From positions 1 through 62,161 of the forward strand of contig JACPAX010000014.1 of NCBI GenBank assembly GCA_016180585.1: a DNA stretch of 62,161 nucleotides. The letters are read 5' to 3'. Below are positions 46,840 through 59,739 of this stretch, in pieces. A program made the translations under genes and the position numbers. Origin of the DNA: Candidatus Omnitrophota bacterium (lineage in GTDB: Bacteria; Omnitrophota; Gorgyraeia; 2-02-FULL-51-18). The notes under the pieces are model-generated. The model saw only the letters and a program-made list of their open reading frames with translations. It ran no database searches and had not been told where the DNA came from. Every line of letters starts with the position of its first letter. Positions within the stretch are counted from its first letter, which is position 1.

Positions 46840-47562
46840 TTGAAATTATCGGATAAAAATCTTGAGACGGAGGTCAGTGAAGTTTTTTCTTCGCTGCAGG
46901 GGGAGGGGCCGTATCTCGGCGTGAAGCAGATTTTCGTGCGTTTCGGCCGCTGCAACATGCGCTGCGGCTACTGCGACGAGATCGAGAAGATGAAGGAGGA
47001 GAGCTTCTCGGTTTATCCCCTGGAAAAACTTATCGGCGAAGTGGACCGGCTTGAGGCGGAGAAGGGCCCGCACCATTCGGTCTCGCTCACCGGCGGCGAG
47101 CCGCTCTTTTATGCGTGTTTTCTGGGAAATTTCCTGCCGAGGCTCAAGGAAAAAGGGCTCTCGGCGTATCTCGAGACCAACGGGACGCTCCCGCGCGAGC
47201 TGGCGCAGGTGATCAAGTGGTGCGACGTGATCGCGATGGACATGAAGCCCGCCTCGAGCGCCGGAGACCGCGCGTTTCTGAAGGAGCACGAGGCCTTTCT
47301 CAAAGTCGCGATCCAAAAAGAGCTCTTCGTGAAGGTCGTGATCACGCCGGACACCTTGGCCCGGGAGATAGGGGAGTGCGTGGACCTTGTGGCGGCCGTG
47401 AACCCCAAAATCCCCTTTATCTTCCAGCCGCTCAGCGAGCCCTTCGGCATCAACGGCCGGTCCCTCGCGCTGATCGAAAAAGAGCTTTTCGCCATCGCCA
47501 GCCAAAAACTCCTCGACGTCCGCGTCATCCCCCAGATGCACAAAATCTGGGGTGTACGGTAA
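46840..47562 (+). CDS. queE: 7-carboxy-7-deazaguanine synthase (radical SAM)
   Basis: EVFSSLQGEGPYLGVKQIFVRFGRCNMRCGYCD and SLTGGEPL. TTG start; adjacent to queD. Confidence 0.88.
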   Translation: MKLSDKNLETEVSEVFSSLQGEGPYLGVKQIFVRFGRCNMRCGYCDEIEKMKEESFSVYPLEKLIGEVDRLEAEKGPHHSVSLTGGEPLFYACFLGNFLPRLKEKGLSAYLETNGTLPRELAQVIKWCDVIAMDMKPASSAGDRAFLKEHEAFLKVAIQKELFVKVVITPDTLAREIGECVDLVAAVNPKIPFIFQPLSEPFGINGRSLALIEKELFAIASQKLLDVRVIPQMHKIWGVR

Positions 47563-47620
47563 GCTAAGTCGTTTGTTTTCAATAGGCAAGCCCTCCTTGA
47601 AAGTGTCGAAAAACAGCTTC

Positions 47621-47641
47621 GGATACAACTGGGATACAGTC
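47621..47641 (+). repeat. Direct repeat, left copy (putative attL core)
   Basis: GGATACAACTGGGATACAGTC. It contains GGATACA twice and matches 59484-59504 at 20 of 21 positions. Confidence 0.6.
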
Positions 47642-47755
47642 CAAAACACTCTAGCCATTTTTCCGAACCCGTAAAGCTTATATATAATCCCTAAGATTTT
47701 CGTGCCAAGGGCTTGCTCTTGTCCTCTAGGTACTGTCGGCAACAAGGAGGTGCCG

Positions 47756-47995
47756 ATGAAATATCCAATTATCGTTATTGGGAATGTTCGATATGCGCCG
47801 TATGCGCTAATGGAGATAAGGGGAGACGCGGTCGTATCATTCAAACCACTCAACAGACTGAATGAACCGCAAGAACAGTCAATAAAACATTGGTTTAAAA
47901 AGCTGATAGCGTGTGTGAAAGGTAGTGTGCCTAAGAGGAGGACATTACCATGTCACGAAAGCACTTTAGAGCACTTGCGGAACAGATTGCGTTAA
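47756..47995 (+). CDS. Hypothetical protein (79 aa)
   Basis: ATG preceded by AAGGAGG at good spacing. I recognise no family. Overlaps the next small gene. Confidence 0.4.
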   Translation: MKYPIIVIGNVRYAPYALMEIRGDAVVSFKPLNRLNEPQEQSIKHWFKKLIACVKGSVPKRRTLPCHESTLEHLRNRLR

Positions 47996-48111
47996 TACCT
48001 GATCTATCTATGAGGATAACTGCGGCTTATGCCGTAGCAAAGGCGTGTCACCGGCTCAACCCACGCTTTAAGCTGGAAAGATTTCTCCGCGCTTGTTGCG
48101 CTGAGGAATAG
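47950..48111 (+). CDS. Small hypothetical protein (53 aa), absent from the supplied ORF track
   Basis: My translation is MSRKHFRALAEQIALIPDLSMRITAAYAVAKACHRLNPRFKLERFLRACCAEE*. AGGAGG lies 8 nt upstream. It recalls small phage/plasmid proteins ending ...NP.F...RF...C. Confidence 0.5.
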   Translation: MSRKHFRALAEQIALIPDLSMRITAAYAVAKACHRLNPRFKLERFLRACCAEE

Positions 48112-48322
48112 GTAGAAAAAATCTCAAGCGACGACCCCCCCTTGAGGCCCCCACAGATACCCCTACCCACCATCACCTCCATAGTAGTTTGACGCGAAGT
48201 CGGGCAGCCCAGAAACACGGTTTTGCCCATGTTTTTAGATGGTTGGAAGGATGCGTGGATTGCACTGCCAAAAAGCGGTATAATGTCCAAAAAATTAAGA
48301 CGAACTAAGAGTTAGGTAAATT

Positions 48323-49516
48323 ATGTCTTGTCTTGCTTTCTTTCCCTGGTTGGAAGTCAAAAGCCGCATCCAGTTTGGCGATTTAGCACTTACTCCCTTT
48401 GAGCGCAATAAGTCGCCTTTTGGAGCCGGTTCTCCAGATCAAAGCACTTGCGACGGTGTTCTTGAGCCATACCATGATGGAAAGCACCCTGTTCAAAAAG
48501 CAACTTTGCTTGAGCACGGTGGCGTTTTTTTTGGCGATGTCAGCCAGGAAGCGGCGGGGGAATACTTTGTTTTCCGGGATATTGTGGCCTGCTCATCTCT
48601 CGGGAAGCGCGAGTTTTTTGGTTTTGGCTTTCCCTACTGGAACTCTGGTCATTTTGAAATGGTGATACAAAACTTTGTCGATCCCCACGGCTCTATCGCT
48701 GTAACATCCCGTCGTCGCGATGGAAAGACCACCCATCACATGACCCGCGAGGACTATTTTTTTCGTCGGCCCTTTCAAGTTAGCGCAAACGTAGGTATCG
48801 ATTTTGATCGAAATCTAGTAACGGCTTTGTTGGCCGCGAAAGACAAGAGCCCCGTCTGGCACGAATACTATGACGCGATCTCTAACTTTAATCAGGCTAA
48901 TACCGACAGCGATCAAAGGACGGAAGCCGAGGAAGCCGTCATGTTGATAGGGGCGTTTCAACGTTTATTACGTTGCACTGCTAGCGGGGAGGATGACCTT
49001 ACGGCTCGGCTCACAAAGGTGCTCAACCCGTTCATCCACTTAGAAATAGAAAATTGTGAAAAAATCCAGAACTTCACCCACTACAAGGTCAAGGCATCAA
49101 CCGTAACCGAAGCATGGATTTCAGATTTTTTTAAGCTTAGAGGTGAAAACGCTCATGGTAAACGGCTACCCCGCGGCCCGCTTGTCTGGGCCAGTATGGA
49201 GCATCTCTTGTTAGCATCGTTTCTTTTCCCGCACTTATTGAAACTTCAATTGCAGGAGGACGGTTATTATAAGCTGACGGACGATGATGAAGCTGATTTG
49301 ATGGCGTTTGAGCCTTTATTGGCTGCGAAGTGCTTAGAAAAAACTGCAGATGGAAAGGGCTGGATATGGAGCGAGGTCTTTCGTAAGGTTCGGTCTGACT
49401 ATCTATTAAAAAAATGTATGGAGCCCATCCTGGCCGAGTTTTTCAAACAAAAGCTCGACGGGCCTGACGTTGTAGCTGAAAACCCTAAACCTGAGCCGAC
49501 CAAGGGGGCTGACTAA
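48323..49516 (+). CDS. Hypothetical protein with Rx4H (HEPN-like) motif
   Basis: 397 aa with no family recognised. FFKLRGENAHGK (nt 49139-49156) fits the HEPN Rx4-6H signature. Its stop overlaps the next ATG (TAATG). Confidence 0.7.
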   Translation: MSCLAFFPWLEVKSRIQFGDLALTPFERNKSPFGAGSPDQSTCDGVLEPYHDGKHPVQKATLLEHGGVFFGDVSQEAAGEYFVFRDIVACSSLGKREFFGFGFPYWNSGHFEMVIQNFVDPHGSIAVTSRRRDGKTTHHMTREDYFFRRPFQVSANVGIDFDRNLVTALLAAKDKSPVWHEYYDAISNFNQANTDSDQRTEAEEAVMLIGAFQRLLRCTASGEDDLTARLTKVLNPFIHLEIENCEKIQNFTHYKVKASTVTEAWISDFFKLRGENAHGKRLPRGPLVWASMEHLLLASFLFPHLLKLQLQEDGYYKLTDDDEADLMAFEPLLAAKCLEKTADGKGWIWSEVFRKVRSDYLLKKCMEPILAEFFKQKLDGPDVVAENPKPEPTKGAD

Positions 49517-52500
49517 TGCCGCTCACAGGTGGACCAGCCGATAAGTTGGGGAACCGTTACGAACTCTGGTGGACGGTTCTTCAATTTGTTCGTATGCTTC
49601 ATGGAAAAGCAGAGAGAATACGTATTGAAGACCCAAACGTAACAAAAGCGGAGTTTGTGATAGTTCATAATGGGCACCGGGAACTTCATCAAGCCAAGCG
49701 AAGTCACCAGAGCGGCAAATGGAGCAATGCTTCTCTCGCTAGCTCCGATATGCAACTTCTGCAGGGTATGTTCGACCAGCTTTTGGGGAATGATAATCGA
49801 TTCGTTTTCGTGTCCGGCAGTGCTGCTGAGGAGCTAAAAGAGCTTGCGCACCGTGCCGAAAAGGCAGAAACCGTGGAGGAATTCGAATCAAAGTTTCTTG
49901 AGGCAGAGATTCAGAAGGTTAGGTTTGATACGCTGAAGAAGAAATACTGGAAAAATACTGACACGACAACTGCCTACGAGATTCTACGACGAATCGAGGT
50001 TAAGACGGTTGATGAGAAGAGTCTTGAAGAGCAGGTTCATTGGGGTATTCGAGCTTTATTTCTCGCTGATCCCAACATTGTATGTGCCGAGTTACGATGT
50101 ATTGCAGAAGATTCTATTCATCAGACCATCACGCGCGAAGCACTTATTGAGCGTCTTGCTCAGCGCGGTTTTATGCTGCGTCGTCTCGCTAAGCTTGACT
50201 CGGCCGCAGCCTTGGTTGGTGAAGCTACAGAGCGTTATCTCGCCGTCGTACGAAAGAAACTAATCCGGAAGTCACTGATTCCCCGAGCGGCAACGCAGAC
50301 ACTTCTTGAACAACTTATAGGGGCTGCACATGGACGTGATCTGGCGCTAACTGGTAGAGCAGGTGTTGGCAAAACAGGTTGCGTGATTGAGTTGGTCGAG
50401 GCGCTGCGAGCGCGCAATATCCCCGTCTTGGCTTTTCGACTCGACCGTCTCAAACTAGTTTCAACAACAGTGGAGTTAGGGCAACAGCTTGGGCTTGAGG
50501 AATCACCTGCGCTCGTGCTTGCCGCTATGGCTGCAGGCCGGGAAGCTGTCTTAGTAGTCGATCAGCTTGACGCGGTGAGCACTGCTTCGGGGCGAAGTTC
50601 AGATTTCCTTGAAGCCGTGGAGGGAATCTTGGCTGAAACTCGTGGCTTGCGCGACAAACTAAAGCTGCACGTTGTTGTTGTTTGTAGAGCATTTGATTGG
50701 GAAAACGACCATAGGTTACGTCGACTGCTTTCAGAGCAACAAACCAAAGTGGAAGTTGTCGAGTTTTCGATTGATGAAGTGAAAGCCGTTCTTTCCGCCG
50801 ATGGTTTCCGTACGGAACTTCTCCAAAAGAATCAGTTAGAGTTGCTCAGACTTCCACAAAACCTCTCGTTGTTTCTTGAAGCAAGTTTTGCGAAAGCTGG
50901 AGCGCCAACGTTCAACACTGCAAAAGAACTTTTTGACCGGTATTGGGACGAGAAACGCCGAGCAGTCAAAGCGCGGGCTAATTATTCACAAGAACAGTGG
51001 GCGGAAGTGATTGGGTTCATTTGTGAAAAAATGACCCAAACTCAACAGCTTTTCGCCTCGCGCGAGAGTCTTGATCAATTTGATAGCGATTACATCGCGG
51101 CAATGGCTTCGGAAGGCGTACTAACTTTCGAGAATCAGAGATATGGATTTGGTCATGAAAGTTTTTTCGATTATTGCTTTGCGCGTGCTTTCATCCCTAA
51201 AGAAAAACCGCTGACCGAATTTCTCACCGCTTCTGAGCAGCACCTCTTCAGGCGGGCGCAAGTGAGGCAAGTTCTTACCTACCTACGGGATGCTGACCGA
51301 GATCGCTACTGCAAGGAGCTACGTGAACTTTTAGCAGACAGCCGAATTCGTGCTCATATCAAAGACCTTGCCATCGCTTTGGTCGTAGCCGCGCCTGATC
51401 CTGGCGATGATGAATGGGCTGTACTAGAGCCGTGGTTGAATTCCAACCTTGCGATTTTTGAGAATAGCCAGAAGAGCCCAGACAAGCTTTCTTCCATGGT
51501 GTGGCAACATTTCTTTCCTTCGGTCTCTTGGTTTTATTTTATTGAAAGGCGAGGCTTCATTAAGAACTGGCTTGGATCTGGAAAGAAGAGCCTCATCGAT
51601 ATGGCAGTGAATTACCTGCGACTTCACCAGCGACATGCAGCCGATACGGTGGCAGAATTGCTAGAACCCTATATTGGGCAGACTGGTGATTGGCCGCAAC
51701 GACTTCGTTTCGTGATGCAATGGGCCGATTTGGGGGACAGTCGCAGATTTTTTGATTTATTTTTGCGGCTCATTGATGATGGAACTCTCGACAATGCACG
51801 CGGGCCGATAGCAGTCAATAGTACATTCTGGAGCATGTTTCATGGACTGGCAAAGACACAGGCCGCATGGGTAGCGGAAATTCTTGCACATTGGCTTCGC
51901 AGAAGGTTTGTGTTGGTTTCACATCCGACGGTAGAAGGTGAGGAGCCGAATTGGCACGACCTTTTCAACAACGACGAATTTGGAAAAGATCATTTACATG
52001 ATGCTGCAACCAAAGCACCGGGAGCGTTCGTTGATCACGTTCTCCCCGTTGTCTTAGAAATTTCAGATGCCACCATCTATAGTGAAAATAATTCACCGAA
52101 GCGAGATGCCGTCTGGTCGATAGCGCTATTCGATAATGAGTATGAATCGGCTGAAGATGCTTGCAGAAATACGCTTGCCACCGCATTGCAGACGGTTGCA
52201 AAAGATAAGCCAAAAAAACTCAGCGATGTTGTAGCCGAACTTCAACGTCGTGATACTTATATGGCAAACTTCCTCCTTTTAAATCTCTTCGCTGCTGGAG
52301 CGGCGCATTTTGCCGATCCAGCTGTTACCCTTTTGTGTGACCAGCCGTGGCGTTTTTACTGTGGATTTTCAGAAAGCCCTCACTGGATTGCGATGCAGCT
52401 TATTAAGGCAGTTGTTTCAATCTGTTCGCCGGAAAACCGGACGAAATTGGAAAAAACGATCATGAGTTATTCTCCGGATTACGAACGCAGCGCCAAAGGG

Positions 52501-54060
52501 CACAAAATCGCGGGAAGAGCCTCCTTTGCGTTGCTGTCCGCTATTACACCAGAATATCGCAGTGGTCACGCTCAAGCACGCTACAAAGAGCTCGAACGAA
52601 AGTTCGGGAAACCAGACGGCCCGCCACTTGGAGTTCATGGTGGGTTCGTTGGATCCCCAATTAAGAAAGAAGCAGCCGAACAAATGACTGATGAACAGTG
52701 GTTGAAGGCAATTGCAAAATATGATTCAGAAGAACGTGAGGATCGTTGGAATGATTTCTTGAAGGGTGGCGCCAGAGAACTTGCCAGGATGCTGCGTGAT
52801 TTTGTTCACAATGAACCGGAACGTTTTTCTCAACTGAGTTTACGATTTCCCGATGGTACCAATCCAGTCTACATTGATCGAGTGATCGACGGGTTAAAAG
52901 GTACCAATGTGTCTACCAAGCTGAAGCTCGCCGTCTGTCGTAAAGCTTATAGTGAATCTCGTGAGGAATGTGGAAGGGCAATTTCCGACCTACTTGGAGG
53001 CATCCAGGAATCGCTACCGGAAGACGCTGTTCAGATGCTCGATTGGATAGCTACTCAGCACTCTGATCCAGAAAAAGATTTATGGAACGTAGAAGCCACA
53101 GCAGGTAAACCCTACTATGGTGGAGATATCCACAGCCACGGTATCAATACGACACGTGGGAGAGCCGCCGAAGCAATTCACAATCTTATCCGCACCGATG
53201 TTGGATATGTCGCACGTTTTGGATCTACACTCAACCACCTTGTTAGTGATGAGAACCTTTCAGTACGCTCGTGCGCTGCTTCGACGTTGCTCGCTGTCGC
53301 TCGACATAACACACCTTTGGCGTTAGAGCTTTTCAAGAAGCTCGCCGAAGCAGACGACCGTTTACTCGCAACTCCTTATGTGGACCGCTTTATCTACTAC
53401 AGCTTGCACAAGAATTTCATCCAAGTCCGGCCTTATGTGGAGCGGATGCTGCGGTCAAAAGAACCTAAAGTGAGTGAAGTTGGCGCTCGGCTCGCCGGTG
53501 TGGCGGCTCTCTATCACGAAGATGCTGCAGATTTGGTAAATAAAGCAATGTCCGGAAGTCCTTCGCAGCGACTCGGGGTTGTCCAGGTAGCGTCAGCCAA
53601 TATCGCTCGTGCAGATTGTCGAACGTGGTGCGAAAATTGTTTATTGGTACTTTTTAATGATGACGATAACAAGGTCCGTCGCGAAGCCACATCATGTTTT
53701 CATCATCTTAAGAGCGAACCTTTGGAGAACTACGAGAACCTTATCAGGGCATTTTGTGACAGCTTGGCCTACCAAGAGGGTTCATTTCCAGTTCTTCACG
53801 TGCTGGAGGATTCGTTGCTCCGCTTGCCGGGTATCACACATGTCGTGTGCGAGAAGTTTCTCATGCGTTTTAGTGATGAAGCAAAAGACATCCAAACTTC
53901 TCGCGCCGGGGATGTTCATACTGTTGCCAAACTGATATTCCGAACTTATCATCAACATCAACGCGATCAATGGGCTCCTCGATGTCTCGACCTAATTGAC
54001 AAGATGTGCCTAGAAGGCATCCGCGATACAAGAAGTGAACTGGATGAATACGAACGATGA
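49516..54060 (+). CDS. Large STAND-type P-loop NTPase with an N-terminal nuclease-like domain and C-terminal HEAT-like repeats
   Basis: N-terminus has IRIED...HQAK (D...QxK). Walker A is GRAGVGKT (50353-50376) and Walker B is VLVVDQLD (50548-50571). It also has a NACHT-like FGHESFFDYCFARAF and ~900 aa of helical repeats. Confidence 0.85.
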   Translation: MPLTGGPADKLGNRYELWWTVLQFVRMLHGKAERIRIEDPNVTKAEFVIVHNGHRELHQAKRSHQSGKWSNASLASSDMQLLQGMFDQLLGNDNRFVFVSGSAAEELKELAHRAEKAETVEEFESKFLEAEIQKVRFDTLKKKYWKNTDTTTAYEILRRIEVKTVDEKSLEEQVHWGIRALFLADPNIVCAELRCIAEDSIHQTITREALIERLAQRGFMLRRLAKLDSAAALVGEATERYLAVVRKKLIRKSLIPRAATQTLLEQLIGAAHGRDLALTGRAGVGKTGCVIELVEALRARNIPVLAFRLDRLKLVSTTVELGQQLGLEESPALVLAAMAAGREAVLVVDQLDAVSTASGRSSDFLEAVEGILAETRGLRDKLKLHVVVVCRAFDWENDHRLRRLLSEQQTKVEVVEFSIDEVKAVLSADGFRTELLQKNQLELLRLPQNLSLFLEASFAKAGAPTFNTAKELFDRYWDEKRRAVKARANYSQEQWAEVIGFICEKMTQTQQLFASRESLDQFDSDYIAAMASEGVLTFENQRYGFGHESFFDYCFARAFIPKEKPLTEFLTASEQHLFRRAQVRQVLTYLRDADRDRYCKELRELLADSRIRAHIKDLAIALVVAAPDPGDDEWAVLEPWLNSNLAIFENSQKSPDKLSSMVWQHFFPSVSWFYFIERRGFIKNWLGSGKKSLIDMAVNYLRLHQRHAADTVAELLEPYIGQTGDWPQRLRFVMQWADLGDSRRFFDLFLRLIDDGTLDNARGPIAVNSTFWSMFHGLAKTQAAWVAEILAHWLRRRFVLVSHPTVEGEEPNWHDLFNNDEFGKDHLHDAATKAPGAFVDHVLPVVLEISDATIYSENNSPKRDAVWSIALFDNEYESAEDACRNTLATALQTVAKDKPKKLSDVVAELQRRDTYMANFLLLNLFAAGAAHFADPAVTLLCDQPWRFYCGFSESPHWIAMQLIKAVVSICSPENRTKLEKTIMSYSPDYERSAKGHKIAGRASFALLSAITPEYRSGHAQARYKELERKFGKPDGPPLGVHGGFVGSPIKKEAAEQMTDEQWLKAIAKYDSEEREDRWNDFLKGGARELARMLRDFVHNEPERFSQLSLRFPDGTNPVYIDRVIDGLKGTNVSTKLKLAVCRKAYSESREECGRAISDLLGGIQESLPEDAVQMLDWIATQHSDPEKDLWNVEATAGKPYYGGDIHSHGINTTRGRAAEAIHNLIRTDVGYVARFGSTLNHLVSDENLSVRSCAASTLLAVARHNTPLALELFKKLAEADDRLLATPYVDRFIYYSLHKNFIQVRPYVERMLRSKEPKVSEVGARLAGVAALYHEDAADLVNKAMSGSPSQRLGVVQVASANIARADCRTWCENCLLVLFNDDDNKVRREATSCFHHLKSEPLENYENLIRAFCDSLAYQEGSFPVLHVLEDSLLRLPGITHVVCEKFLMRFSDEAKDIQTSRAGDVHTVAKLIFRTYHQHQRDQWAPRCLDLIDKMCLEGIRDTRSELDEYER

Positions 54061-54083
54061 TAAAATTTTAGAAAGGTATTTGG

Positions 54084-54308
54084 CTAGTCTTTGAACTGCA
54101 AAAGTTTCCAGGCAGGAACTTTAAAAGCTTTGGCGAGCTTTTCTATACTTGATAGGCAAATATCGTCAGGCTTCCGACTTTCCAAGTTTTGCACGTGTTT
54201 ATAATCCAACCCTGAAAGTTCTGACAATTCGAGTTGAGTTAAGCCCTTCTTAGTCCGTAGACTTTTTATACGTTTTGCCAACTTAATGTTGATTTGGGAG
54301 GTGGCCAT
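54084..54308 (-). CDS. XRE-family HTH transcriptional regulator
   Basis: KRIKSLRTKKGLTQLELSELSGLDYKHVQNLESRK is a classic HTH_3 pattern. Confidence 0.85.
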   Translation of the reverse strand: MATSQINIKLAKRIKSLRTKKGLTQLELSELSGLDYKHVQNLESRKPDDICLSSIEKLAKAFKVPAWKLLQFKD

Positions 54309-54390
54309 TAAGGGCCATTATGTGGTAATTCTTCTCTTGTATAAACCGGCTATAGACGGTGTATAATTAAGTTATTAAGAGGAGCCGCCC

Positions 54391-54780
54391 ATGAAAAAAC
54401 TGGTATCTTTATTTTTCCTTTCCCTGATTGTCGCTTTATCAATTTCTGACACAGCCTTAGCTGAATATGTTCGTGGACACTATCGAAAGAATGGTTCCTA
54501 CGTCAGCGGTTATCACCGATCAAACTCCAATAGCACCGTTACTGATAATTATTCATTCAAAGGTAATGTCAATCCTTATACTGGCGCGATAGGAACGAAT
54601 TATTATCGGAATAGCCCTTCGAGTCCTTATTTTGGGTCTAGTCCGTCAAGAGGCTGGAGCAACCCGGCTACGACCTTTTCGGGCAATTCATCAACGGGGG
54701 TTTGGGAAAGTCCCTCAACTGGGGTATGGAGTAGTCCTTCAACGGGCATCGGAAGCGGATCTTCCAGTTGGGACGATTGA
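54391..54780 (+). CDS. Small secreted Ser/Gly/Tyr-rich protein
   Basis: Good SD (AGAGGAG), signal peptide ...DTALA-EY, YVRGHYRKNGSYVSGYHRSN motif and a repetitive STGVW tail. Confidence 0.6.
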   Translation: MKKLVSLFFLSLIVALSISDTALAEYVRGHYRKNGSYVSGYHRSNSNSTVTDNYSFKGNVNPYTGAIGTNYYRNSPSSPYFGSSPSRGWSNPATTFSGNSSTGVWESPSTGVWSSPSTGIGSGSSSWDD

Positions 54781-54799
54781 GGTCAAAGGTAGGGTAGGT

Positions 54800-55327
54800 A
54801 TGGGGATGCAGAAAAACAAAGTCAGACTTTTTACTCTCTTAATGGCAGTACTTTGCTGTAGTGGCTGTGCCACTGGTTCTTATTACTACAAGTACCAAGG
54901 GGCTGCCGGTGGTTTTAGTGAGGTTAAGATCCAAGATGACTTATTCAAGGTAGCGTATTCTGAGAATCAATTTGTTAGTCCTGAAACAGCAGAGGATTTT
55001 GCATTACTTCGATCGGCGGATGTCGCAATTCAGAACGGCTATAAATACTTCGTGATTCTCGAACAAAAATCTGATGTGCAAAAGACGTCAGTAGATATGC
55101 CCAGCTACTCGACCACGATGGCGTCGGGCTCGATATATCCAGCGACCTATTCAGGAAGCATGATCGGCAACACCATCAATTACGGTGGCGGCACGTATGT
55201 TTATTCTAGGCCGAGTACCTCTAATATGATCAAGTGCTTTAAAGAAAAGCCTGAGAATTTACCCACGATCATTTATGACGCAGTGCAGGTCAGAGATAGT
55301 ATAAAAACCAAGCACTCTATTAGATGA
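54800..55327 (+). CDS. Putative lipoprotein
   Basis: MGMQKNKVRLFTLLMAVLCCSGCATG is a signal peptide with a lipobox-like SGC. ATG 54800 chosen inside the longer ORF. Confidence 0.6.
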   Translation: MGMQKNKVRLFTLLMAVLCCSGCATGSYYYKYQGAAGGFSEVKIQDDLFKVAYSENQFVSPETAEDFALLRSADVAIQNGYKYFVILEQKSDVQKTSVDMPSYSTTMASGSIYPATYSGSMIGNTINYGGGTYVYSRPSTSNMIKCFKEKPENLPTIIYDAVQVRDSIKTKHSIR

Positions 55328-55800
55328 ATCGCTTAGTTAAAGTTCTCACCATTGCGTTAGTTTTTTCAGCCCTCTATTCTTCTTTCGATATGGCTGAGAG
55401 TACCAGTGTTACGAAAGAATATCTCAAGAGAATTACAGAAGATAAACGCAAAAGCCGAGAGGCGATGGCGCAATTAGGGGATAAGGCGGCGCTCATGGAG
55501 TTACAGCACCGGCAGGACCTCGAACTCCAACAGCGCCAATTCGATCATGAAAAAGATTTGATGTATCAGAAAAAAATTGCCGATCAACAGGAGTTTAATG
55601 CGCATCACACTCGGTGCATGGGCGCATTGGTGCGACGACATCCAGAAATGTTTGACGATGAGGGAGGATATTTATCAGACAGCCCAAAAGGAAGAATTTG
55701 GGAACGCGTAGCTGTGGAGCATCCCGAGTACGCTTCCCAAATTGGCGGACTTTGCATGGCGATGGAAGAAATGGAGCGGATTCTCCGTGATGAAATATAA
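55324..55800 (+). CDS. Hypothetical signal-anchored protein
   Basis: N-terminal hydrophobic segment and a helical charged body. Its start overlaps the upstream stop (ATGA). Confidence 0.55.
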   Translation: MNRLVKVLTIALVFSALYSSFDMAESTSVTKEYLKRITEDKRKSREAMAQLGDKAALMELQHRQDLELQQRQFDHEKDLMYQKKIADQQEFNAHHTRCMGALVRRHPEMFDDEGGYLSDSPKGRIWERVAVEHPEYASQIGGLCMAMEEMERILRDEI

Positions 55801-55851
55801 TCTAGAACACATCAAAATATCTTTTTACTGGCTATTTTTGGTGCTCGTAAC

Positions 55852-55879
55852 TTGACCACAGAGAATCGTGTGATATAAT
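55852..55879 (+). promoter_or_regulatory. sigma70-like promoter with extended -10 (TTGACC-16-TGaTATAAT)
   Basis: TTGACC at 55852-55857, TG at 55871-55872 and TATAAT at 55874-55879. No ORF follows for ~290 nt. Confidence 0.5.
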
Positions 55880-56109
55880 AAAAATTGAGAGAGACAATCT
55901 GTTAGGTTGTGGTGCTCTCAAAATTGCCGAAGTAGCCAGTTGTAAACGGCTGGTCAACGATGTTGAGCCAAGCAATTCAATGTCGGCCCGAATAGCGAAA
56001 GTAGGGCGAGCGGACGCGCTTAAATGCTAGGCATAATTGAGCTGTCTTTAACGCAATAAAGATGAGCCCAAGCAGGTGAAGTATACCCTTGTTTGGGCCG
56101 TTTCATTTT

Positions 56110-56142
56110 AGGGCCTGCGGGGTTTCCTGCGGGCCTATTTTT
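56110..56142 (+). terminator. Rho-independent terminator-like hairpin
   Basis: AGGGCCTGCGGG-gttt-CCTGCGGGCCT folds into about 10 pairs (one mismatch, one bulge, one G:U) and is followed by ATTTTT. Confidence 0.45.
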
Positions 56143-56170
56143 ATTGCATAGAAAAGACAAGGAGAGAAAA

Positions 56171-56398
56171 ATGAGACAGCTCACACCAATTAAAGCTATC
56201 CGTAAGACCTGCCTAGACTGCTGTAGTGGTTCCCCCAAATCTGTAAAGCTTTGCTCTGACACCGAGTGCCCCCTGCATATCTATCGCTTTGGCAAGAACC
56301 CCCGCAGGAAGGGTATCGCTCCGAATAAGCACCTATTCCAGAAAAATCCCACCGTTGTGTCGAGAGATTTCTCAAAAGAAAGGGCTTCCAATGAGTGA
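56171..56398 (+). CDS. Small Cys-rich (zinc-binding) phage/ICE-type protein
   Basis: AAGGAGAG SD. MRQLTPIKAIRKTCLDCCSGSPKSVKLCSDTECPLHIYRFGKNP recalls a small family common in mobile elements. Confidence 0.55.
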   Translation: MRQLTPIKAIRKTCLDCCSGSPKSVKLCSDTECPLHIYRFGKNPRRKGIAPNKHLFQKNPTVVSRDFSKERASNE

Positions 56399-56618
56399 GT
56401 CACAGTATTCAACCCAGAACCTGTATGAGGCTGCTTTCTGCCTCTGCAAGGGATTCAAACTGGCTGGCAAGCGACGAGAAGGAGCTAAGGTCGTTATTCT
56501 CTTTGAAGGGGAAAACGTACAACAAGAGGCTCTTGGTTTCTATAACGGGTCCAAGGTGCCCGCTAAGGACTACGCAGATTCGTATAGAACCTTAAAGGAT
56601 TTCATTTTTGAGAGATAG
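56391..56618 (+). CDS. DUF5659-like protein
   Basis: YSTQNLYEAAFCLCKGFKLAGKRREGAKVVILFEG fits the DUF5659 pattern as I remember it. The start overlaps the upstream stop. Confidence 0.6.
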   Translation: MSESQYSTQNLYEAAFCLCKGFKLAGKRREGAKVVILFEGENVQQEALGFYNGSKVPAKDYADSYRTLKDFIFER

Positions 56619-56641
56619 GAGAAAAAGATGAGGATAAAAAA

Positions 56642-56986
56642 ATGGGCCGCCATAAAAGCTACCGACTTCCACCATTTGTCCCACTAGATAAACGAATGCT
56701 TCTTCACTCTCCGGAGTGGAGAGATTTAGGATCGTCTGCCAAAGTTCTGTATATGCAGATTAAAGCCAAACACACCGGCAGTAACAATGGACAAATACGC
56801 CTTTATTACAGCGAGCTAAAAGGCATGATGGCCGACAAGACGATAAGCAGAGCATTTAAGCAACTGGAAGCCAAGGGTTGGATCTGCCGCGAGAAAATCG
56901 GGGGAGAGCATCGCTGGGTAAATGATATACGTTTGACCGGTAAATACGACGCGACTGTGAAAGATTGTGTTTGGTTGCGGCAATAA
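56642..56986 (+). CDS. Winged-helix-like protein of mobile-element backbone
   Basis: ...SSAKVLYMQIKAKHTGSNNGQIRLYYSELKG...ISRAFKQLEAKGWI is a wHTH-like pattern. Function unknown. Confidence 0.5.
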   Translation: MGRHKSYRLPPFVPLDKRMLLHSPEWRDLGSSAKVLYMQIKAKHTGSNNGQIRLYYSELKGMMADKTISRAFKQLEAKGWICREKIGGEHRWVNDIRLTGKYDATVKDCVWLRQ

Positions 56987-57171
56987 AAAACAGCGCTATA
57001 TTTTACAGTGTCAGTGTGCACTTTTTACGGTGTCGGCGATGATTGGAAATGCTCCACTCAGTAAATAATGCTGAGTCGTGCTATAGAGCGATCAAAATCG
57101 ACCCGTTAAAAAATACAGTCTTTATATATTATGCCATCCATAGGTGCTTAATTTAACAAAGGGGGAGTGTC

Positions 57172-57360
57172 ATGATAAGTAGGGCACGTTTGATACGTCA
57201 AAAAGTAGAAATCGTAAGTCAAGATCCGTTCGTGGTGAGGTGCTTGGGGTGTGGTCTGGCTTGGCAACCTTTGCTTAGAAGCGGAGGGCGATTACCAAAG
57301 GGGTTCTCCGAACGCCCAAACGGTTGTGTGGGAAACGAATGTACAGAAATTAACCGATAA
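57172..57360 (+). CDS. Small hypothetical protein with CxxC...CxxxxC
   Basis: GGGGGAG SD at good spacing; 62 aa; RCLGCG and NGCVGNEC. Confidence 0.4.
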   Translation: MISRARLIRQKVEIVSQDPFVVRCLGCGLAWQPLLRSGGRLPKGFSERPNGCVGNECTEINR

Positions 57361-57649
57361 GTGGGTAAAAAAGGGGTGGTGGGGGCGATAAGGGGCGGCC
57401 GTACGACACGCTTCTGTACAGATTTGGAGAAACATACGCTGAAAACGTACAGAGCACCGCCGTACGTCGGTCAGGAACGAGGCGTACATCCACTCGACTG
57501 AAAATAGCGTTTACCGTATAGCGAAATGAGGCAAAAAAGACCGCTGGCGTAGGCGCTATTTAGCGGGTTTAGGGGTTTGAGCTTGGAGGAAATAAGGGGT
57601 CATTCCGAAGATTTTTTGACGTGTAGCACAGTTTCAGGAGGATAGGTCA

Positions 57650-57844: not shown

Positions 57845-58117
57845 GAAGCAATACCGAGGTACAAATGAAAGAAGTTATTCAAAGCCTATTTTAGTTTATC
57901 GTATCGCCCGGTTAGTACCGGCCAACGAGCGGCCGGAATAGCGGGGATTAGCGTCTCCGTTCCGTTGATGCAATAAGTTCTGACTTTGGTCTGCCTTAGC
58001 GGGTAGTCAAAGCGCACCGGGGATAAACAAGCCGAGCTGAGTCGCGCCAGTAGGGGCCTAACCTGGAACAAATCCGGGCTAGGCATCGTGTGCCTACCCG
58101 GTTGAGGGCGGGCAAAC

Positions 58118-58342
58118 ATGGACGGTCAAGACAATCAAAAGTGGGTAGACGCGAAAAAGTTGGCTGAGATCTTGGGGGTGAAACAGGGGTGGATACGGCA
58201 AAACATGAAAATAATACCGCACAAAAAGTTGCGGCGGCTCGTTCGTTTCAATCCTGTCGAAGTTATGGAGCGCTTTAAGCCGAAGGATGAAGCCCAAACA
58301 AAGGTAGATTCTCTTAGCAAGGGGGCGAGAATATGGGCTTAA
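58118..58342 (+). CDS. Second excisionase-like HTH protein
   Basis: VDAKKLAEILGVKQGWIRQNMKIIPHKKLRRLVRFNPVEVMERF is a diverged HTH_17 pattern. Overlaps the integrase start. Confidence 0.65.
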   Translation: MDGQDNQKWVDAKKLAEILGVKQGWIRQNMKIIPHKKLRRLVRFNPVEVMERFKPKDEAQTKVDSLSKGARIWA

Positions 58343-59538
58343 TCAGGCGCTGTTCGGTTTGCAGAAAGCAGGGCGCTCGGTATAGTGCGCAAGGCTTAAA
58401 ATGCACCCACAAAGAAGCGACCTGGGCCGTAAAATTTCTTGTCGGCAGCAAACAGATTTTTAAGACCTTTGGGCCGAACAAGAGGGAGGCGGAGCGTTTT
58501 CTGACCAAAATCAAATCAGAGATTGCCTCCGGTGGTACGTTTGAACAAATAAAGCCTATTCTCTTCAAAGAGCTCGCCGAGAAGTGGCTTAATAACCATC
58601 GTCAGAGCGCCAATCCGAAACCTGGGACAATTTGGGCGTATGATTCTCGGCTCACTCACCACATATTGCCACTCATGGGTCATAAGGTCGTTAATCAGAT
58701 CACCGCTTACGATATTGAGACCATAAAACAAAAAGTCCGTGAAAAACTAAGGGCTCGATCAACTAACCAAGTTCTGGTTGAGATAGGCACGATTCTAAAA
58801 TATGGATGGACGCTCGGGTTTTGTAAATCCAATCCCGCGCAGTTGGTCAAAAAGTACGGCATCGAAAGGGGGCCGGGCCGAACTCTCACGAAAGAGGAGG
58901 CCGCAATTCTGCTGAGATACGCGACCGAGCCGTATCGAACGATTTTATTTGCTCTACTCTGCACTGGCGCAAGGATCGGAGAAATATCGGCTCTAAAATG
59001 GACGGACGTGGATTTTAAGAACAATCTGATCACGATTCAGCGCAATGTGTTTCACGCGCCGAAAGGGAAGTACGGCATGGGAGACAAGTCGTGGATATTT
59101 GGAACCCCGAAATCGAAGGAATCAACGCGCAAGGTCTTTATGATTCCAGCGCTCAAAACCGCGCTGGTCAGGCATTGTGAGCAGAGCGGAGGCAATCAGC
59201 ATGGCCTTGTATTCTCTACGAAGTTCGGCGAGCCCTATGATCGCTCAACGTTAAGGGTGAAACTTGTCTCTATTACGAAAGCCGCCGGGTTGAAACATGT
59301 TCGACTGCATGACCTGCGGCACACAAACGCGACATGGCTGCTGGCGGAGGGGGTCAATCTCGCCTATGTCTCAAAGCATCTCGGGCACTCAGGAGTTGCG
59401 ATTACGGGCGATACCTACCATCACGTTCTCCCTAAAGAACACGAGCGAGGAATGAAACTCTTGGACGGCATCTTTCCAATTTGGGATACAATTGGGATAC
59501 AGTCGCTGCCTCCACCAGACGAAATCAAACGAAAGTAG
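58333..59538 (+). CDS. Tyrosine recombinase / phage-type integrase
   Basis: ARIGEISALKWTDVDF (Arg), HDLRHTNATWLL (HxxR) and LGHSGVAITGDTYHHV (His...Tyr). Confidence 0.92.
   Translation: MGLIRRCSVCRKQGARYSAQGLKCTHKEATWAVKFLVGSKQIFKTFGPNKREAERFLTKIKSEIASGGTFEQIKPILFKELAEKWLNNHRQSANPKPGTIWAYDSRLTHHILPLMGHKVVNQITAYDIETIKQKVREKLRARSTNQVLVEIGTILKYGWTLGFCKSNPAQLVKKYGIERGPGRTLTKEEAAILLRYATEPYRTILFALLCTGARIGEISALKWTDVDFKNNLITIQRNVFHAPKGKYGMGDKSWIFGTPKSKESTRKVFMIPALKTALVRHCEQSGGNQHGLVFSTKFGEPYDRSTLRVKLVSITKAAGLKHVRLHDLRHTNATWLLAEGVNLAYVSKHLGHSGVAITGDTYHHVLPKEHERGMKLLDGIFPIWDTIGIQSLPPPDEIKRK
59484..59504 (+). repeat. Direct repeat, right copy (putative attR core), inside the integrase 3' end
   Basis: GGATACAATTGGGATACAGTC, 20/21 identical to 47621-47641. 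Confidence 0.6.
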
Positions 59539-59739
59539 CCGAATGGACTTTACGAAGTTTGATTGTCGTAACCTCTGTAGACTCGTATAATAATGCAACT
59601 ATGCGAATCCCCACGCAAATAGGCGAAAAAGAAAAATTACCCCAAGAGCACAAGCACAAAATCTGGGGTCAGTGAACGGTTTTATTTTCCCTGTGATAAA
59701 ATAATAAAAAAGGTTTAAATAAATCAAGGAGGAGACCCG

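What the first reader, a model, noticed from the sequence alone, without database searches (positions are those of the whole stretch)
48323..54060. Candidate antiviral system: HEPN-motif protein translationally coupled to a nuclease-STAND NTPase-HEAT repeat giant
This gene pair is the main cargo of the island. The two genes are translationally coupled: the TAA of gene 1 shares a base with the ATG of gene 2 (TAATG at 49514-49518).

Gene 2 (1514 aa) has three parts from N to C:
- aa 1 to ~230 contain GG..LGNRYELWW, IRIED (D39) and HQAK (Q59-x-K61). This is a D...QxK restriction-endonuclease-like arrangement reminiscent of Cap4/DUF4297-type effector nucleases.
- A P-loop NTPase follows, with Walker A GRAGVGKT (K286) and Walker B VLVVDQLD. 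After it comes YGFGHESFFDYCFARAF, which resembles the NACHT/STAND winged-helix signature.
- About 900 aa of helical repeats complete the protein, with HEAT-like units (SVRSCAASTLLAVARHN, KVSEVGARLAGVAAL, KVRREATSCFHHL).

This effector-switch-sensor logic matches Avs/bNACHT-type antiphage STAND proteins.

Gene 1 (397 aa) matches no family I know. It carries FFKLRGENAHGK, an Rx4H motif of the kind that defines HEPN RNases.

I cannot place a dedicated HEPN-like partner fused by translational coupling to a nuclease-STAND protein in any named defence system.
Basis: partly seen in the sequence, partly recalled or inferred. Interest (0 to 1): 0.85.

Follow-up and report, generated by a model that had tools for sequence, protein, structure and literature searches.

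The report
Avs7 antiphage sensor beside HEPN-like gene
The large gene is a member of the recently published Avs7 family of bacterial antiviral receptors, and the small gene fused to it belongs to a widespread uncharacterised HEPN-like family that is not its regular partner, so this is two independent defence genes side by side and not a new two-gene system.

Summary
The sequence observation holds. Two ORFs (397 aa and 1514 aa) overlap in TAATG, and every quoted motif is at the stated position.

Gene 2 is not new. Its N-terminal model matches Cap4/DUF4297 nucleases (HamA, LmuA, Cap4, Avs3). Its NTPase is STAND-type. The whole protein aligns collinearly with Salmonella Avs7 (PDB 9N00, E=3.5e-30). 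Avs7 is a published receptor that senses phage major capsid protein, tetramerises and cuts DNA.

Gene 1 belongs to a large uncharacterised family: 1611 cluster representatives, about 380 aa. Only E204, R273 and H278 are invariant across diverse members. The fold and profile evidence for HEPN is weak but consistent.

The pairing is not conserved:
- 0 of 82 gene-2 loci carry a gene-1 relative.
- 0 of 41 informative gene-1 loci carry gene 2.

Each gene sits on its own in defence islands, often embedded in Hma/DUF499 or type I R-M operons. Gene-2 relatives are also start/stop-coupled to unrelated upstream genes.

Verdict: two independent single-gene defence modules on a roughly 12 kb integrative island. 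Gene 1 is a reasonable untested defence candidate.

The parts
48323..49516 (+). Gene 1 (397 aa; GenBank MBI2094928.1). It belongs to a widespread uncharacterised family of about 380 aa.
   Evidence: ORF and accession. The family has 1611 representatives at E<=1e-3. The AF2 model has pLDDT 86.5.
48323..48802 (+). Gene 1 N-terminal alpha/beta domain (aa 1-160). It carries the conserved FFPW, YxN and RRRDG motifs. No structural relative was found, so a sensor or regulatory role is only a proposal.
   Evidence: Secondary structure. Conservation. No significant Foldseek or PDB profile hit.
48809..49456 (+). Gene 1 C-terminal helical domain (aa 163-378), HEPN-like.
   Evidence: The best partial Foldseek matches are HEPN proteins: 2hsb (prob 0.84, TMt 0.61), 4nqf, 1ylm and 7bxo. 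None is significant. HEPN_Apea is the only recurrent Pfam hit: 2/16 and 4/56 members, best E 4.7e-4, below threshold.
49139..49156 (+). R273-x4-H278 motif (RGENAH), the putative HEPN catalytic motif.
   Evidence: R273 and H278, with E204, are the only invariant columns in 56 diverse family members. Coordinates were read.
49514..49518 (+). TAATG stop/start overlap between gene 1 and gene 2.
49516..54060 (+). Gene 2 (1514 aa; MBI2094929.1), an Avs7-family antiviral STAND protein.
   Evidence: phmmer against SeAvs7 (PDB 9N00) gives E=3.5e-30. The family profile gives E=4.1e-36. The matches are collinear in the NTPase and in two sensor segments.
49516..50265 (+). Cap4/DUF4297-type PD-(D/E)xK nuclease effector domain (aa 1-250).
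   Evidence: The AF2 model has pLDDT 86.9. Foldseek against PDB gives 21 hits at E<=1e-3, all Cap4-type nucleases: HamA 8zue 3.6e-7, LmuA, Cap4, and Avs3 8dgc 2e-5. Pfam Cap4_nuclease hits 4/32 fragments weakly.
50284..51375 (+). STAND NTPase module (about aa 257-620; NBD, HD1 and winged helix).
   Evidence: Across the family, Pfam gives AAA_16 21/24, NACHT 19/24, nSTAND_NTPase5 18/24 and nSTAND1 12/24. PADLOC PDC-M54A matches at E 2e-19 when this region is scanned alone. It aligns with SeAvs7 residues 261-645.
50353..50376 (+). Walker A motif GRAGVGKT (K286 aligns with SeAvs7 K292).
   Evidence: G280, G283, G285 and K286 are invariant.
50548..50571 (+). Walker B motif VLVVDQLD (D349 aligns with SeAvs7 D358).
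   Evidence: D349 and D352 are invariant.
51142..51192 (+). Winged-helix signature YGFGHESFFDYCFARAF (H547 aligns with SeAvs7 H545).
   Evidence: F545, G546, H547 and E548 are invariant. SeAvs7 His545 is highlighted in the paper.
51376..54057 (+). C-terminal helical-repeat sensor (about aa 621-1514). It is proposed to bind a phage protein, by analogy the major capsid protein.
   Evidence: Pfam HEAT, HEAT_2, Adaptin_N and Cnd1 hits. Segments 1006-1108 and 1208-1336 align with SeAvs7 985-1087 and 1201-1332.
47533..47553 (.). Left copy of a 21-nt imperfect direct repeat at the 3' end of queE. It is the probable left junction of the island.
   Evidence: 90% identity to the copy at 59649-59669. The G+C drop begins here. 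L006 shows the same queE-proximal site holding a gene-1 homolog in a related genome.
59649..59669 (.). Right copy of the 21-nt repeat. It is the probable right junction of the island, held with low confidence.
   Evidence: Two-copy short repeats can arise by chance.
58333..59538 (+). Tyrosine-recombinase-like integrase of the island, assigned from its translated sequence. Two small AlpA/Xis-like HTH ORFs lie upstream of it at 57650-57844 and 58118-58342.
   Evidence: ORF translations, with the RLHDLRHT...GH...Y catalytic signature read directly. No profile search was run on these ORFs.

Best explanation
The region holds two independent single-gene defence modules. They are carried next to each other, and co-transcribed, on a roughly 12 kb integrative island inserted at the 3' end of queE in a Candidatus Omnitrophota genome.

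Gene 2 is an Avs7-family antiviral STAND protein. In SeAvs7 the mechanism is established:
- In the resting state it is an ADP-bound, autoinhibited monomer.
- Its bilobed helical sensor clamps a newly made phage protein, the HK97-fold major capsid protein. Host EF-Tu helps in one clade.
- This releases the NTPase, ATP binding drives tetramerisation, and the assembled Cap4 nuclease domains cut double-stranded DNA. Phage replication is aborted.

For gene 2 itself, homology, domain folds and catalytic residues are shown here. The trigger and the nuclease activity are inferred.

Gene 1 is a member of a large uncharacterised family. It has a novel N-terminal alpha/beta domain and a C-terminal HEPN-like helical domain with an invariant E...Rx4H signature. 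The most likely function is a self-contained, infection-activated RNase of the abortive-infection type, like ApeA, DARNA or HEC-08. In that model the N-terminal domain would act as sensor or autoinhibitor. This function is inferred, not shown.

The TAATG overlap reflects operon packing of embedded defence genes. It does not indicate a dedicated partnership.
For: Gene 2:
- Foldseek hits of the N-terminal model are exclusively Cap4/DUF4297 defence nucleases, including Avs3.
- STAND-family Pfam hits recur across the family.
- The only solved relative is SeAvs7. It has nearly the same length (1523 vs 1514 aa) and aligns collinearly in the NTPase and two sensor segments, at E=3.5e-30 and 4.1e-36.
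- The SeAvs7 ATP-site and winged-helix residues K292, D358, R395 and H545 align with the invariant K286, D349, R391 and H547.
- The Avs7 mechanism comes from Lee et al..
- The family occurs in at least 400 species genomes across many phyla. It has no conserved neighbour. It sits among type I R-M (12/79 loci), Hma/DUF499 (about 14/79), type IIG and DrmMI genes.

Gene 1:
- The family has 1611 representatives.
- Only E204, R273 and H278 are invariant.
- HEPN is the only recurring fold or profile signal.
- Hma components are present in 14/67 loci, and the gene is often embedded directly after HmaA.
- Other neighbours are AbiE, type I and type III R-M, DruE-like and PDC-S06 genes.
- It stands alone beside an integrase on plasmid pMOL28.
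- Embedding in Hma predicts defence function with a high hit rate (Payne et al. 2024).

Independence of the two genes:
- 0/82 gene-2 loci have gene 1, by tblastn and six-frame HMM.
- 0/41 informative gene-1 loci have gene 2.
- The 77%-identical gene-1 homolog is coupled to two membrane proteins instead.
- The 75%- and 70%-identical gene-2 homologs follow type I R-M genes and HEPN_Swt1-HmaC respectively.
- Other gene-2 homologs are start/stop-coupled to hsdS, DrmMI or a TPR protein.
Against: - Identity to SeAvs7 is low. Only about 250 of roughly 900 sensor residues align significantly, so the trigger could differ from the capsid protein.
- I could not verify that the authors list this protein as Avs7, because their Table S7 is truncated in the held copy.
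- The sensor fold was not modelled here.
- For gene 1, no HEPN match reaches significance: Foldseek E is about 1 and Pfam hits are below the gathering score. The N-terminal domain has no known relative, and no member of the family has been tested.
- The two genes are physically coupled here and both families recur next to Hma systems. One gene-1 homolog lies 123 nt downstream of a different STAND protein, PDC-M54A-like. A loose functional affinity between gene 1 and STAND or Hma systems is therefore not excluded.
- The locus L006, at the same chromosomal site in a related genome, ends in a scaffold gap right after gene 1. The nearest relative of the island is therefore uninformative.
Confidence: 0.75

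Rival explanations
1. Gene 1 and gene 2 form a dedicated two-gene defence system. The HEPN-like protein would be a second effector or regulator that depends on the STAND protein, or the reverse.
For: - The genes share a stop/start overlap and are co-oriented in one island.
- Both families recur beside Hma/DUF499 systems.
- In L092 a gene-1 homolog lies just downstream of another STAND protein, PDC-M54A-like.
- In L089 a gene-2 homolog directly follows a HEPN_Swt1-fused HmaC. HEPN and STAND neighbours therefore recur loosely.
Against: - No co-occurrence was found in 82 gene-2 loci or 41 informative gene-1 loci, even with six-frame profile searches.
- The closest homologs of each gene have other neighbours.
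- SeAvs7 is fully active as a single gene.
- A gene-1 homolog stands alone on pMOL28.
- In L092 the two genes are separated by an AT-rich 123-nt spacer with its own ribosome-binding site.
Confidence: 0.07
2. Gene 1 is a general auxiliary or back-up RNase effector. It would plug into whichever neighbouring defence system it is embedded in (Hma/BREX-related, R-M, Avs) and fire when the primary system is overwhelmed or inhibited.
For: - It is frequently embedded inside Hma operons directly after HmaA.
- The BREX-related survey reports standalone HEPN modules as auxiliary effectors, and HEPN fused to DUF499 in 1370 taxa.
- It is operonically coupled to varied neighbours.
Against: - It also occurs with no defence neighbour, for example on pMOL28 beside an integrase.
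- It occurs with unrelated neighbours such as AbiE and membrane proteins.
- Embedded genes tested so far act autonomously.
- No specific partner family recurs in most loci.
Confidence: 0.15
3. Gene 1 is not a HEPN RNase or a defence gene. It would be a different helical enzyme, or a mobile-element maintenance or toxin-type gene that merely travels in variable genomic islands.
For: - No HEPN match is statistically significant.
- There are no PADLOC or NCBIfam hits.
- The N-terminal domain is of unknown fold.
- The gene is found next to integrases and resolvases.
Against: - Rx4H plus a glutamate are the only invariant residues in a diverse family.
- HEPN is the only recurrent signal in three independent methods.
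- The motif sits at the end of a core helix followed by a loop and a long helix, as in HepT and ApeA.
- The defence-system context is strong.
- The family is absent from the phage collections searched.
Confidence: 0.2
4. Gene 2 shares the Avs7 NTPase clade and the Cap4 effector, but its sensor has diverged to recognise a phage protein other than the major capsid protein.
For: - Only two sensor segments align with SeAvs7, and overall identity is low.
- The paper shows that related STAND clades sense many different phage proteins.
- The family forms a tight, distinct subgroup: 55-75% identity across phyla.
Against: - The proteins are equal in length and the sensor matches sit at equivalent positions.
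- No other solved Avs protein is hit at E<=1.
- The paper reports the Avs7 sensor as conserved across STAND clades and MCP recognition as a shared property of that sensor.
Confidence: 0.25

Closest known systems
Avs7 (antiviral STAND family 7; SeAvs7, PDB 9N00/9N01/9YIX; Lee et al., Nature 2026, PMC13581612)
   Same: - Length: 1514 vs 1523 aa.
- Order of domains: Cap4 PD-(D/E)xK nuclease, STAND NTPase (NBD-HD1-WHD), large helical sensor.
- Sequence homology is collinear, at E=3.5e-30.
- The Walker A Lys, Walker B Asp, sensor Arg and winged-helix His are conserved.
- It is a single-gene system with extensive horizontal spread in defence islands.
   Different: - Identity is low, and only parts of the sensor align.
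- The source is an uncultured Omnitrophota MAG.
- The trigger, EF-Tu dependence and nuclease activity are untested. 3 of the 5 SeAvs7 EF-Tu-interface residues are identical in my reading of the alignment.
- Here it is translationally coupled to an unrelated upstream gene.
Avs3 (SeAvs3, PDB 8DGC; Gao et al. 2022) and other Cap4-nuclease effectors (CBASS Cap4, Lamassu LmuA, Hachiman HamA, HerA-DUF4297)
   Same: The N-terminal nuclease domain has the same fold. Foldseek E values run from 3.6e-7 to 6e-4 over about 220-260 aligned columns. Avs3 also shares the nuclease-STAND-helical sensor logic.
   Different: - There is no detectable sequence similarity of the NTPase or sensor to Avs3. Avs3 is not hit at E<=1 with the family profile.
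- No PADLOC Avs models match.
- Avs3 senses the terminase.
PADLOC candidate PDC-M54A
   Same: The NTPase region, and in some homologs part of the N-terminal region, matches the PDC-M54A models at E of about 1e-19 to 1e-26.
   Different: - Only model positions of about 127-687 out of 1621-1657 are matched.
- The sensor is not matched.
- A true PDC-M54A-like protein (L092) is not hit by the gene-2 family profile and does not hit SeAvs7.
- The candidate is multi-gene and, as far as I could find, undescribed in the literature.
Single-gene HEPN defence proteins: ApeA (Gao 2020; Juozapaitis et al. 2026 preprint), DARNA, HEC-08
   Same: - Gene 1 shares the logic of a non-catalytic N-terminal region followed by a C-terminal HEPN-type domain with Rx4-6H.
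- It has weak Pfam HEPN_Apea hits and one weak DUF3644 hit.
- It has the same defence-island or Hma-embedded context as HEC-08.
   Different: - PADLOC reported no ApeA or HEC-08 hit for the six members scanned (gene 1 at E<=1; five others at E<=0.001).
- Gene 1 is about 380 aa with a beta-rich N-terminal domain. ApeA is about 580 aa and nearly all helical with three domains. HEC-08 has the HEPN domain at the N-terminus and zinc fingers at the C-terminus.
- Gene 1 has no experimental data.
Hma / DUF499-centred BREX-related systems with embedded or auxiliary effectors
   Same: Both gene families recur inside or next to these systems. This matches the reported embedding of independent defence genes and of auxiliary HEPN effectors.
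   Different: The window contains no HmaA, HmaB or HmaC. Here the two genes ride on an integrase-bearing island instead.

Membership tests
Avs7 (antiviral STAND 7) | STAND NTPase with Walker A Lys, Walker B Asp, sensor Arg and winged-helix His that coordinate the nucleotide | tested here: met
   K286, D349, R391 and H547 are invariant in the family. They align with SeAvs7 K292, D358, R395 and H545. Pfam NACHT, nSTAND5 and AAA_16 hits recur across the family.
Avs7 (antiviral STAND 7) | Avs7-type C-terminal bilobed helical sensor, homologous to the SeAvs7 and Dsr1 sensor | tested here: inconclusive
   Two collinear sensor segments match SeAvs7: 1006-1113 with 981-1088, and 1209-1351 with 1198-1340. 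Domain E values are 2e-4 and 6e-6 with the profile, and 1.4e-6 with the single sequence.
Avs7 (antiviral STAND 7) | N-terminal effector domain (Cap4 nuclease in SeAvs7; at least 20 alternatives in the family) | tested here: met
   Foldseek of the aa 1-260 model gives only Cap4/DUF4297 nucleases at E<=1e-3.
Avs7 (antiviral STAND 7) | Activation by phage major capsid protein, with trigger-dependent tetramerisation and dsDNA cleavage | not testable with these tools
   This needs co-expression toxicity, plaque and nuclease assays, or AlphaFold3 co-folding.
Avs7 (antiviral STAND 7) | Listed among the 3,272 curated Avs7 homologs (Supplementary Table 7 of Lee et al.) | not testable with these tools
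   The held copy of the table is truncated, and the accessions MBI2094929, MCI0621772 and MCM2356603 were not found in the held text.
Cap4/DUF4297 PD-(D/E)xK nuclease | Alpha-beta-beta-beta-alpha-beta core with acidic residues and a (D/E/Q)xK on strand 3 | tested here: met
   The model has helix 14-28 and strands 34-37, 47-51, 54-61 and 95-100. E16, E38, E46 and Q59 are invariant, and K61 is at least 90% conserved. Pfam Cap4_nuclease is only weak: 4/32, best E 5.8e-4.
HEPN superfamily (gene 1) | Conserved Rx4-6H motif | tested here: met
   R273 and H278 are invariant in 16 close and 56 diverse members.
HEPN superfamily (gene 1) | Four-helix up-down HEPN core fold with the motif at the catalytic helix | tested here: inconclusive
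   The top partial Foldseek matches are HEPN proteins, but with E of about 1 (2hsb prob 0.84, TMt 0.61). No PDB profile hit was found. Pfam HEPN_Apea is sub-threshold in 4/56 members. Model coordinates could not be inspected.
ApeA / HEC-08 (named HEPN defence systems) | Match to the family's PADLOC or Pfam model at a trusted score | tested here: not met
   PADLOC returned no ApeA or HEC-08 hit for gene 1 or for five other members. HEPN_Apea is below its gathering score.
   0/82 gene-2 loci and 0/41 informative gene-1 loci hold the other family.
PADLOC PDC-M54 | Full-length match to the PDC-M54A model | tested here: not met
   Only the NTPase and part of the N-terminal region match, at model positions of about 127-687 out of about 1640. 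The full-length query returned nothing. PDC-M54B was not examined.

The most novel reading that the evidence does not exclude
Gene 1 represents a new, widespread, single-gene abortive-infection defence family. It would be a HEPN-type RNase controlled by a structurally novel N-terminal alpha/beta sensor domain with an invariant RRRDG patch, and it habitually embeds in Hma/BREX-related and other defence operons. In this island it would be co-transcribed with an Avs7 DNase receptor, giving a compact RNase-plus-DNase two-layer cassette.
Probability: 0.45. Interest if true: 0.5.

Novelty: new member of a known kind. Interest (0 to 1): 0.3.

Why it matters
- It removes a false lead. The apparent new HEPN plus nuclease-STAND two-gene system is a chance juxtaposition of two autonomous modules, and the giant protein belongs to the already solved Avs7 family.
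- It extends Avs7-type capsid sensors to Omnitrophota and many other uncultured phyla. This tight subfamily, 55-75% identical across phyla, points to very active horizontal transfer.
- It flags gene 1's family as a sizeable, untested defence candidate. The family has about 1600 50%-identity clusters, an invariant E...Rx4H signature, an unknown N-terminal fold and no relatives in PDB.
- It illustrates that translational coupling alone is poor evidence for a functional partnership in defence islands.

Tried and rejected
- The full-length PADLOC, Pfam and NCBIfam scans of both proteins gave nothing usable. The PADLOC miss for gene 2 seems to be a filter artefact, because the NTPase fragment and 23/24 homologs hit PDC-M54A.
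- The word-based homolog search suggested gene 1 was rare, with 16 hits. The exhaustive profile search overturned this with 1611 representatives.
- The N-terminal-domain homolog search returned only fragments of the same family and no new architectures.
- Gene 1 showed no relatives in IMG/VR viral contigs or GenBank phages.
- Foldseek against BFVD was uninformative.
- PDB profile searches for gene 1 were empty.
- hhalign of the gene-1 profile against a single HEPN_Swt1 sequence was uninformative.
- The promoter and terminator scan was no better than shuffles.
- Rfam found only the tmRNA and a tRNA elsewhere in the window.
- I considered that the roughly 400-aa gene coupled upstream of gene-2 homologs in 11 loci might be a divergent gene 1. 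It is HsdS by sequence and sits with HsdM.
- I considered that the roughly 1620-aa neighbours might be PDC-M54A paralogs. They are type IIG R-M or DrmMI proteins.
- L006, the same chromosomal site in a related genome, could not show what follows gene 1 because of a scaffold gap.
- The authors' Avs7 list could not be checked because the supplement is truncated.
- 'PDC-M54' is not mentioned in any searchable paper.

Full report
**Observation**

The window encodes two same-strand ORFs. Gene 1 is 48323..49516 (397 aa) and gene 2 is 49516..54060 (1514 aa). Stop and start share one base, giving TAATG at 49514-49518. A purine-rich AAGGGGG lies just upstream of the gene-2 ATG.

G+C falls from 0.585 to about 0.47 between roughly 47.55 kb and 59.67 kb. 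That stretch is bounded by an imperfect 21-nt direct repeat: 47533-47553, inside the 3' end of queE, and 59649-59669. It ends with a tyrosine-recombinase-like ORF (58333-59538), preceded by two small AlpA/Xis-like HTH ORFs. The pair therefore sits on a probable integrative island of about 12 kb. The right border is less certain than the left. The record is a Candidatus Omnitrophica MAG, and the proteins are MBI2094928.1 and MBI2094929.1.

**Gene 2, domain by domain**

Direct profile scans of the full protein gave only sub-threshold AAA, AAA_16 and NACHT hits and one HEAT repeat. PADLOC gave nothing. Family-level evidence is clearer.

- *Family size.* The protein has more than 1272 relatives. 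Many are full-length at 55-75% identity across unrelated phyla. A scan of species-representative genomes found 400 encoding loci.
- *NTPase.* Across 24 members, Pfam gives HEAT 22/24, AAA_16 21/24, NACHT 19/24, nSTAND_NTPase5 18/24 and nSTAND1 12/24.
- *N-terminal domain.* An AlphaFold2 model of residues 1-260 (pLDDT 86.9) has the alpha-beta-beta-beta-alpha-beta core of PD-(D/E)xK nucleases. All 21 of its Foldseek hits at E<=1e-3 are Cap4/DUF4297-type nucleases of defence systems: Hachiman HamA 8zue 3.6e-7, Lamassu LmuA, CBASS Cap4, and Avs3 8dgc 2e-5 over 241 columns.
- *Catalytic residues.* The conserved residues are E16, E38, E46, H58, Q59 and K61.

The decisive result concerns the whole protein. 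The family profile hits exactly one solved protein at high significance. This is PDB 9N00/9N01/9YIX, a 1523-aa 'AAA family ATPase', at E=4.1e-36. The matches are collinear: 59-652 with 60-644, 1006-1113 with 981-1088, and 1209-1351 with 1198-1340. The window protein alone gives E=3.5e-30.

These entries are Salmonella enterica Avs7, described in Lee et al. (bioRxiv 10.64898/2026.01.04.697583; Nature 2026, PMC13581612). According to that paper:
- SeAvs7 is a Cap4 nuclease, a STAND NTPase and a bilobed TPR-like sensor.
- It senses the HK97-fold major capsid protein and incorporates EF-Tu.
- It forms an asymmetric tetramer that cleaves dsDNA.
- The family carries at least 20 alternative effectors and shows extensive horizontal transfer.

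The SeAvs7 nucleotide-site residues K292, D358 and R395 and the winged-helix H545 align with K286, D349, R391 and H547. These are invariant in the gene-2 family.

I therefore assign gene 2 to the Avs7 family, or at least to its immediate relatives. Three caveats apply. Only part of the sensor aligns. The sensor fold was not modelled. The authors' homolog table could not be checked.

PADLOC's candidate PDC-M54A matches only the NTPase and N-proximal region. It is a more distant relative.

**Gene 1**

The first homolog search found 16 relatives. The exhaustive profile search found 1611 cluster representatives at E<=1e-3, of which 660 are at E<=1e-30. Nearly all are 350-410 aa and aligned end to end. 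The family is therefore large and has a fixed architecture.

An AlphaFold2 model (pLDDT 86.5, pTM 0.85) shows two domains. Residues 1-160 form an alpha/beta domain, and residues 163-378 form a helical domain. In an alignment of 56 diverse members only three columns are invariant: E204, R273 and H278. Near-invariant positions include P8/W9 of the FFPW motif, R130-R132 and G134 of the RRRDG patch, N193/D195 and H294.

The evidence for HEPN is consistent but weak.
- The only Foldseek partial matches with appreciable probability are HEPN proteins: 2hsb (prob 0.84, TMt 0.61), 4nqf, 1ylm and 7bxo. Their E values are about 1.
- The only recurrent Pfam family is HEPN_Apea, in 2/16 and 4/56 members with best E 4.7e-4, below threshold.
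- The motif lies at the end of a core helix, followed by a loop and a long helix. This is as described for HepT and ApeA.
- No PDB sequence relative exists. PADLOC reported no ApeA or HEC-08 hit for gene 1 (at E<=1) or for five other members (at E<=0.001).

I rate a HEPN-type RNase fold at roughly two in three.

**Is the pair a system?**

No. Three lines of evidence agree.

- *Gene-2 loci.* None of 79 genome loci with 8-kb flanks contains a gene-1 relative. The same holds for the loci of the 75%-, 70%- and 69%-identical metagenomic homologs. The searches were tblastn (L009-L087), ORF-level HMM and six-frame HMM on all 82 loci. At least 74 loci have 1.3 kb or more of upstream sequence.
- *Gene-1 loci.* None of 67 loci contains gene 2 by tblastn or profile search. 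41 of them have at least 600 nt downstream.
- *Closest homologs.* The 77%-identical gene-1 homolog is stop/start-coupled to two membrane proteins instead. The 75%-identical gene-2 homolog sits inside a type I R-M operon next to an MNT/HepT pair. The 70%-identical one directly follows HmaB and a HEPN_Swt1-HmaC fusion.

No neighbour family is shared by more than 11 of 79 gene-2 loci. The commonest are HsdS and HsdM. Gene-2 homologs are start/stop-coupled to HsdS, a DrmMI methylase or a TPR protein. Coupling is therefore a generic feature of embedded defence genes.

**Context of each family**

*Gene-2 loci* carry type I R-M (12/79), Hma-like genes (about 14/79), type IIG R-M, DrmMI and ABC/OLD-like ATPases.

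*Gene-1 loci* carry the following:
- Hma components in 14/67 loci, despite many short contigs. The gene is often inserted directly after HmaA.
- AbiEi/AbiEii in 4 loci.
- Type III and type I R-M, a DruE-like helicase, and a PDC-S06/LmuB-like ATPase.
- Once, a PDC-M54A-like STAND protein 123 nt upstream.

On the Cupriavidus plasmid pMOL28, a gene-1 homolog (WP_011239922.1) stands alone next to an integrase.

Hma equals the DUF499-centred BREX-related systems. Standalone or fused HEPN auxiliary effectors have been reported for these. Genes embedded in Hma have a high validated rate of being autonomous defence systems, including the HEPN protein HEC-08.

**Mechanism**

For gene 2, homology, folds and catalytic residues are shown here. 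The rest follows from SeAvs7 and is inferred for this protein:
1. The protein rests as an ADP-bound, autoinhibited monomer.
2. The sensor binds a phage structural protein, most likely the major capsid protein.
3. ATP binding drives tetramerisation.
4. The Cap4 domains cleave dsDNA.

For gene 1, I infer an infection-activated HEPN RNase. Its N-terminal domain, with a conserved basic RRRDG patch, would sense a ligand or hold the enzyme inactive. This is by analogy with ApeA, which is activated by deoxydinucleotides and cleaves tRNA anticodons, and with DARNA. Nothing here shows that the two proteins communicate.

**Novelty and score**

Gene 2 is a new member of a published, structurally solved family. 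Gene 1 is an unnamed family inside a known functional class. The two-gene system is not supported. Interest is modest at 0.3. Its main value is clearing a false lead and nominating gene 1's family for testing.

Noticed in passing
window 47533-59669: Probable integrative island of about 12.1 kb at the 3' end of queE. It has imperfect 21-nt and 24-nt direct repeats near both ends, a tyrosine-recombinase-like ORF (58333-59538), and two AlpA/Xis-like HTH ORFs (57650-57844, 58118-58342). Its G+C is 0.47 against 0.585 upstream. The two repeat pairs are in opposite order at the two ends, so only one pair can be the att core.
   Followed up: partly
window 54391-55800: Three small ORFs in the island, just downstream of gene 2. 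The first is a Ser/Gly-rich protein with a signal-peptide-like N-terminus (129 aa). The second is a lipoprotein-like protein (231 aa; its start overlaps the first ORF). The third is a 158-aa protein with a hydrophobic N-terminus. None of them was analysed further.
   Followed up: no
window 38022-38103 and 39262-39648: A tRNA-Leu(CAG) and a tmRNA (tag AKHTNNVHVPFAGYMALPLAA) lie about 8-10 kb upstream. The island does not use either as its integration site.
   Followed up: partly
gene 2 aa 1006-1108 (window 52531-52839): The sensor segment best conserved with SeAvs7 (985-1087) covers the EF-Tu interface described for SeAvs7. In my reading of the alignment, Q999, K1044 and D1059 are identical (Q1020, K1064, D1080). 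D1003 and H1048 are both Lys here. EF-Tu use may therefore be partly conserved.
   Followed up: partly
window 49516-54057 (PADLOC scans): The full-length gene-2 protein gave zero PADLOC hits even at E<=1. Its NTPase fragment hits PDC-M54A at 2e-19, and 23/24 homologs hit it. This looks like an HMMER filter or bias artefact, and it could make automated annotation miss this gene.
   Followed up: partly
L008/L091 1209-3103: The closest gene-1 homolog (77% identity) overlaps the start of a 380-aa protein with transmembrane segments. A 241-aa multi-pass membrane protein follows. This is a different possible cassette built on the same HEPN-like gene.
   Followed up: no
L092 440-5034: A gene-1 homolog (40% identity) lies 123 nt downstream of a PDC-M54A-like STAND protein that is truncated by the contig start. 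This is the only other case of a gene-1 relative next to a STAND protein. That STAND protein is not detectably related to the gene-2 sensor or to SeAvs7.
   Followed up: partly
L089 689-12548: The 70%-identical gene-2 homolog follows HmaB and an HmaC carrying an N-terminal HEPN_Swt1 domain. Elsewhere (L001, L125, L131) gene-1 homologs sit between HmaA and HmaB. Both families are recurrent passengers of Hma/DUF499 BREX-related systems.
   Followed up: partly
L150 (Cupriavidus metallidurans CH34 plasmid pMOL28, record 127143-128279): A gene-1 family member (WP_011239922.1, annotated hypothetical) stands alone beside an integrase-domain gene on a conjugative plasmid of a cultivable strain. It would be a convenient entry point for experiments.
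   Followed up: partly
L006 5226-6567: A related genome has the same helicase-murI-queD-queE synteny, with a 67%-identical gene-1 homolog at the same site. The scaffold has a run of N right after it, so what follows is unknown.
   Followed up: yes
L061 5073-6287 and L058/L087 6178-8004: Other gene-2 homologs are start/stop-coupled to an unrelated 404-aa protein with no PADLOC hit, or to a roughly 608-aa TPR-containing protein. These may be further embedded candidates.
   Followed up: no
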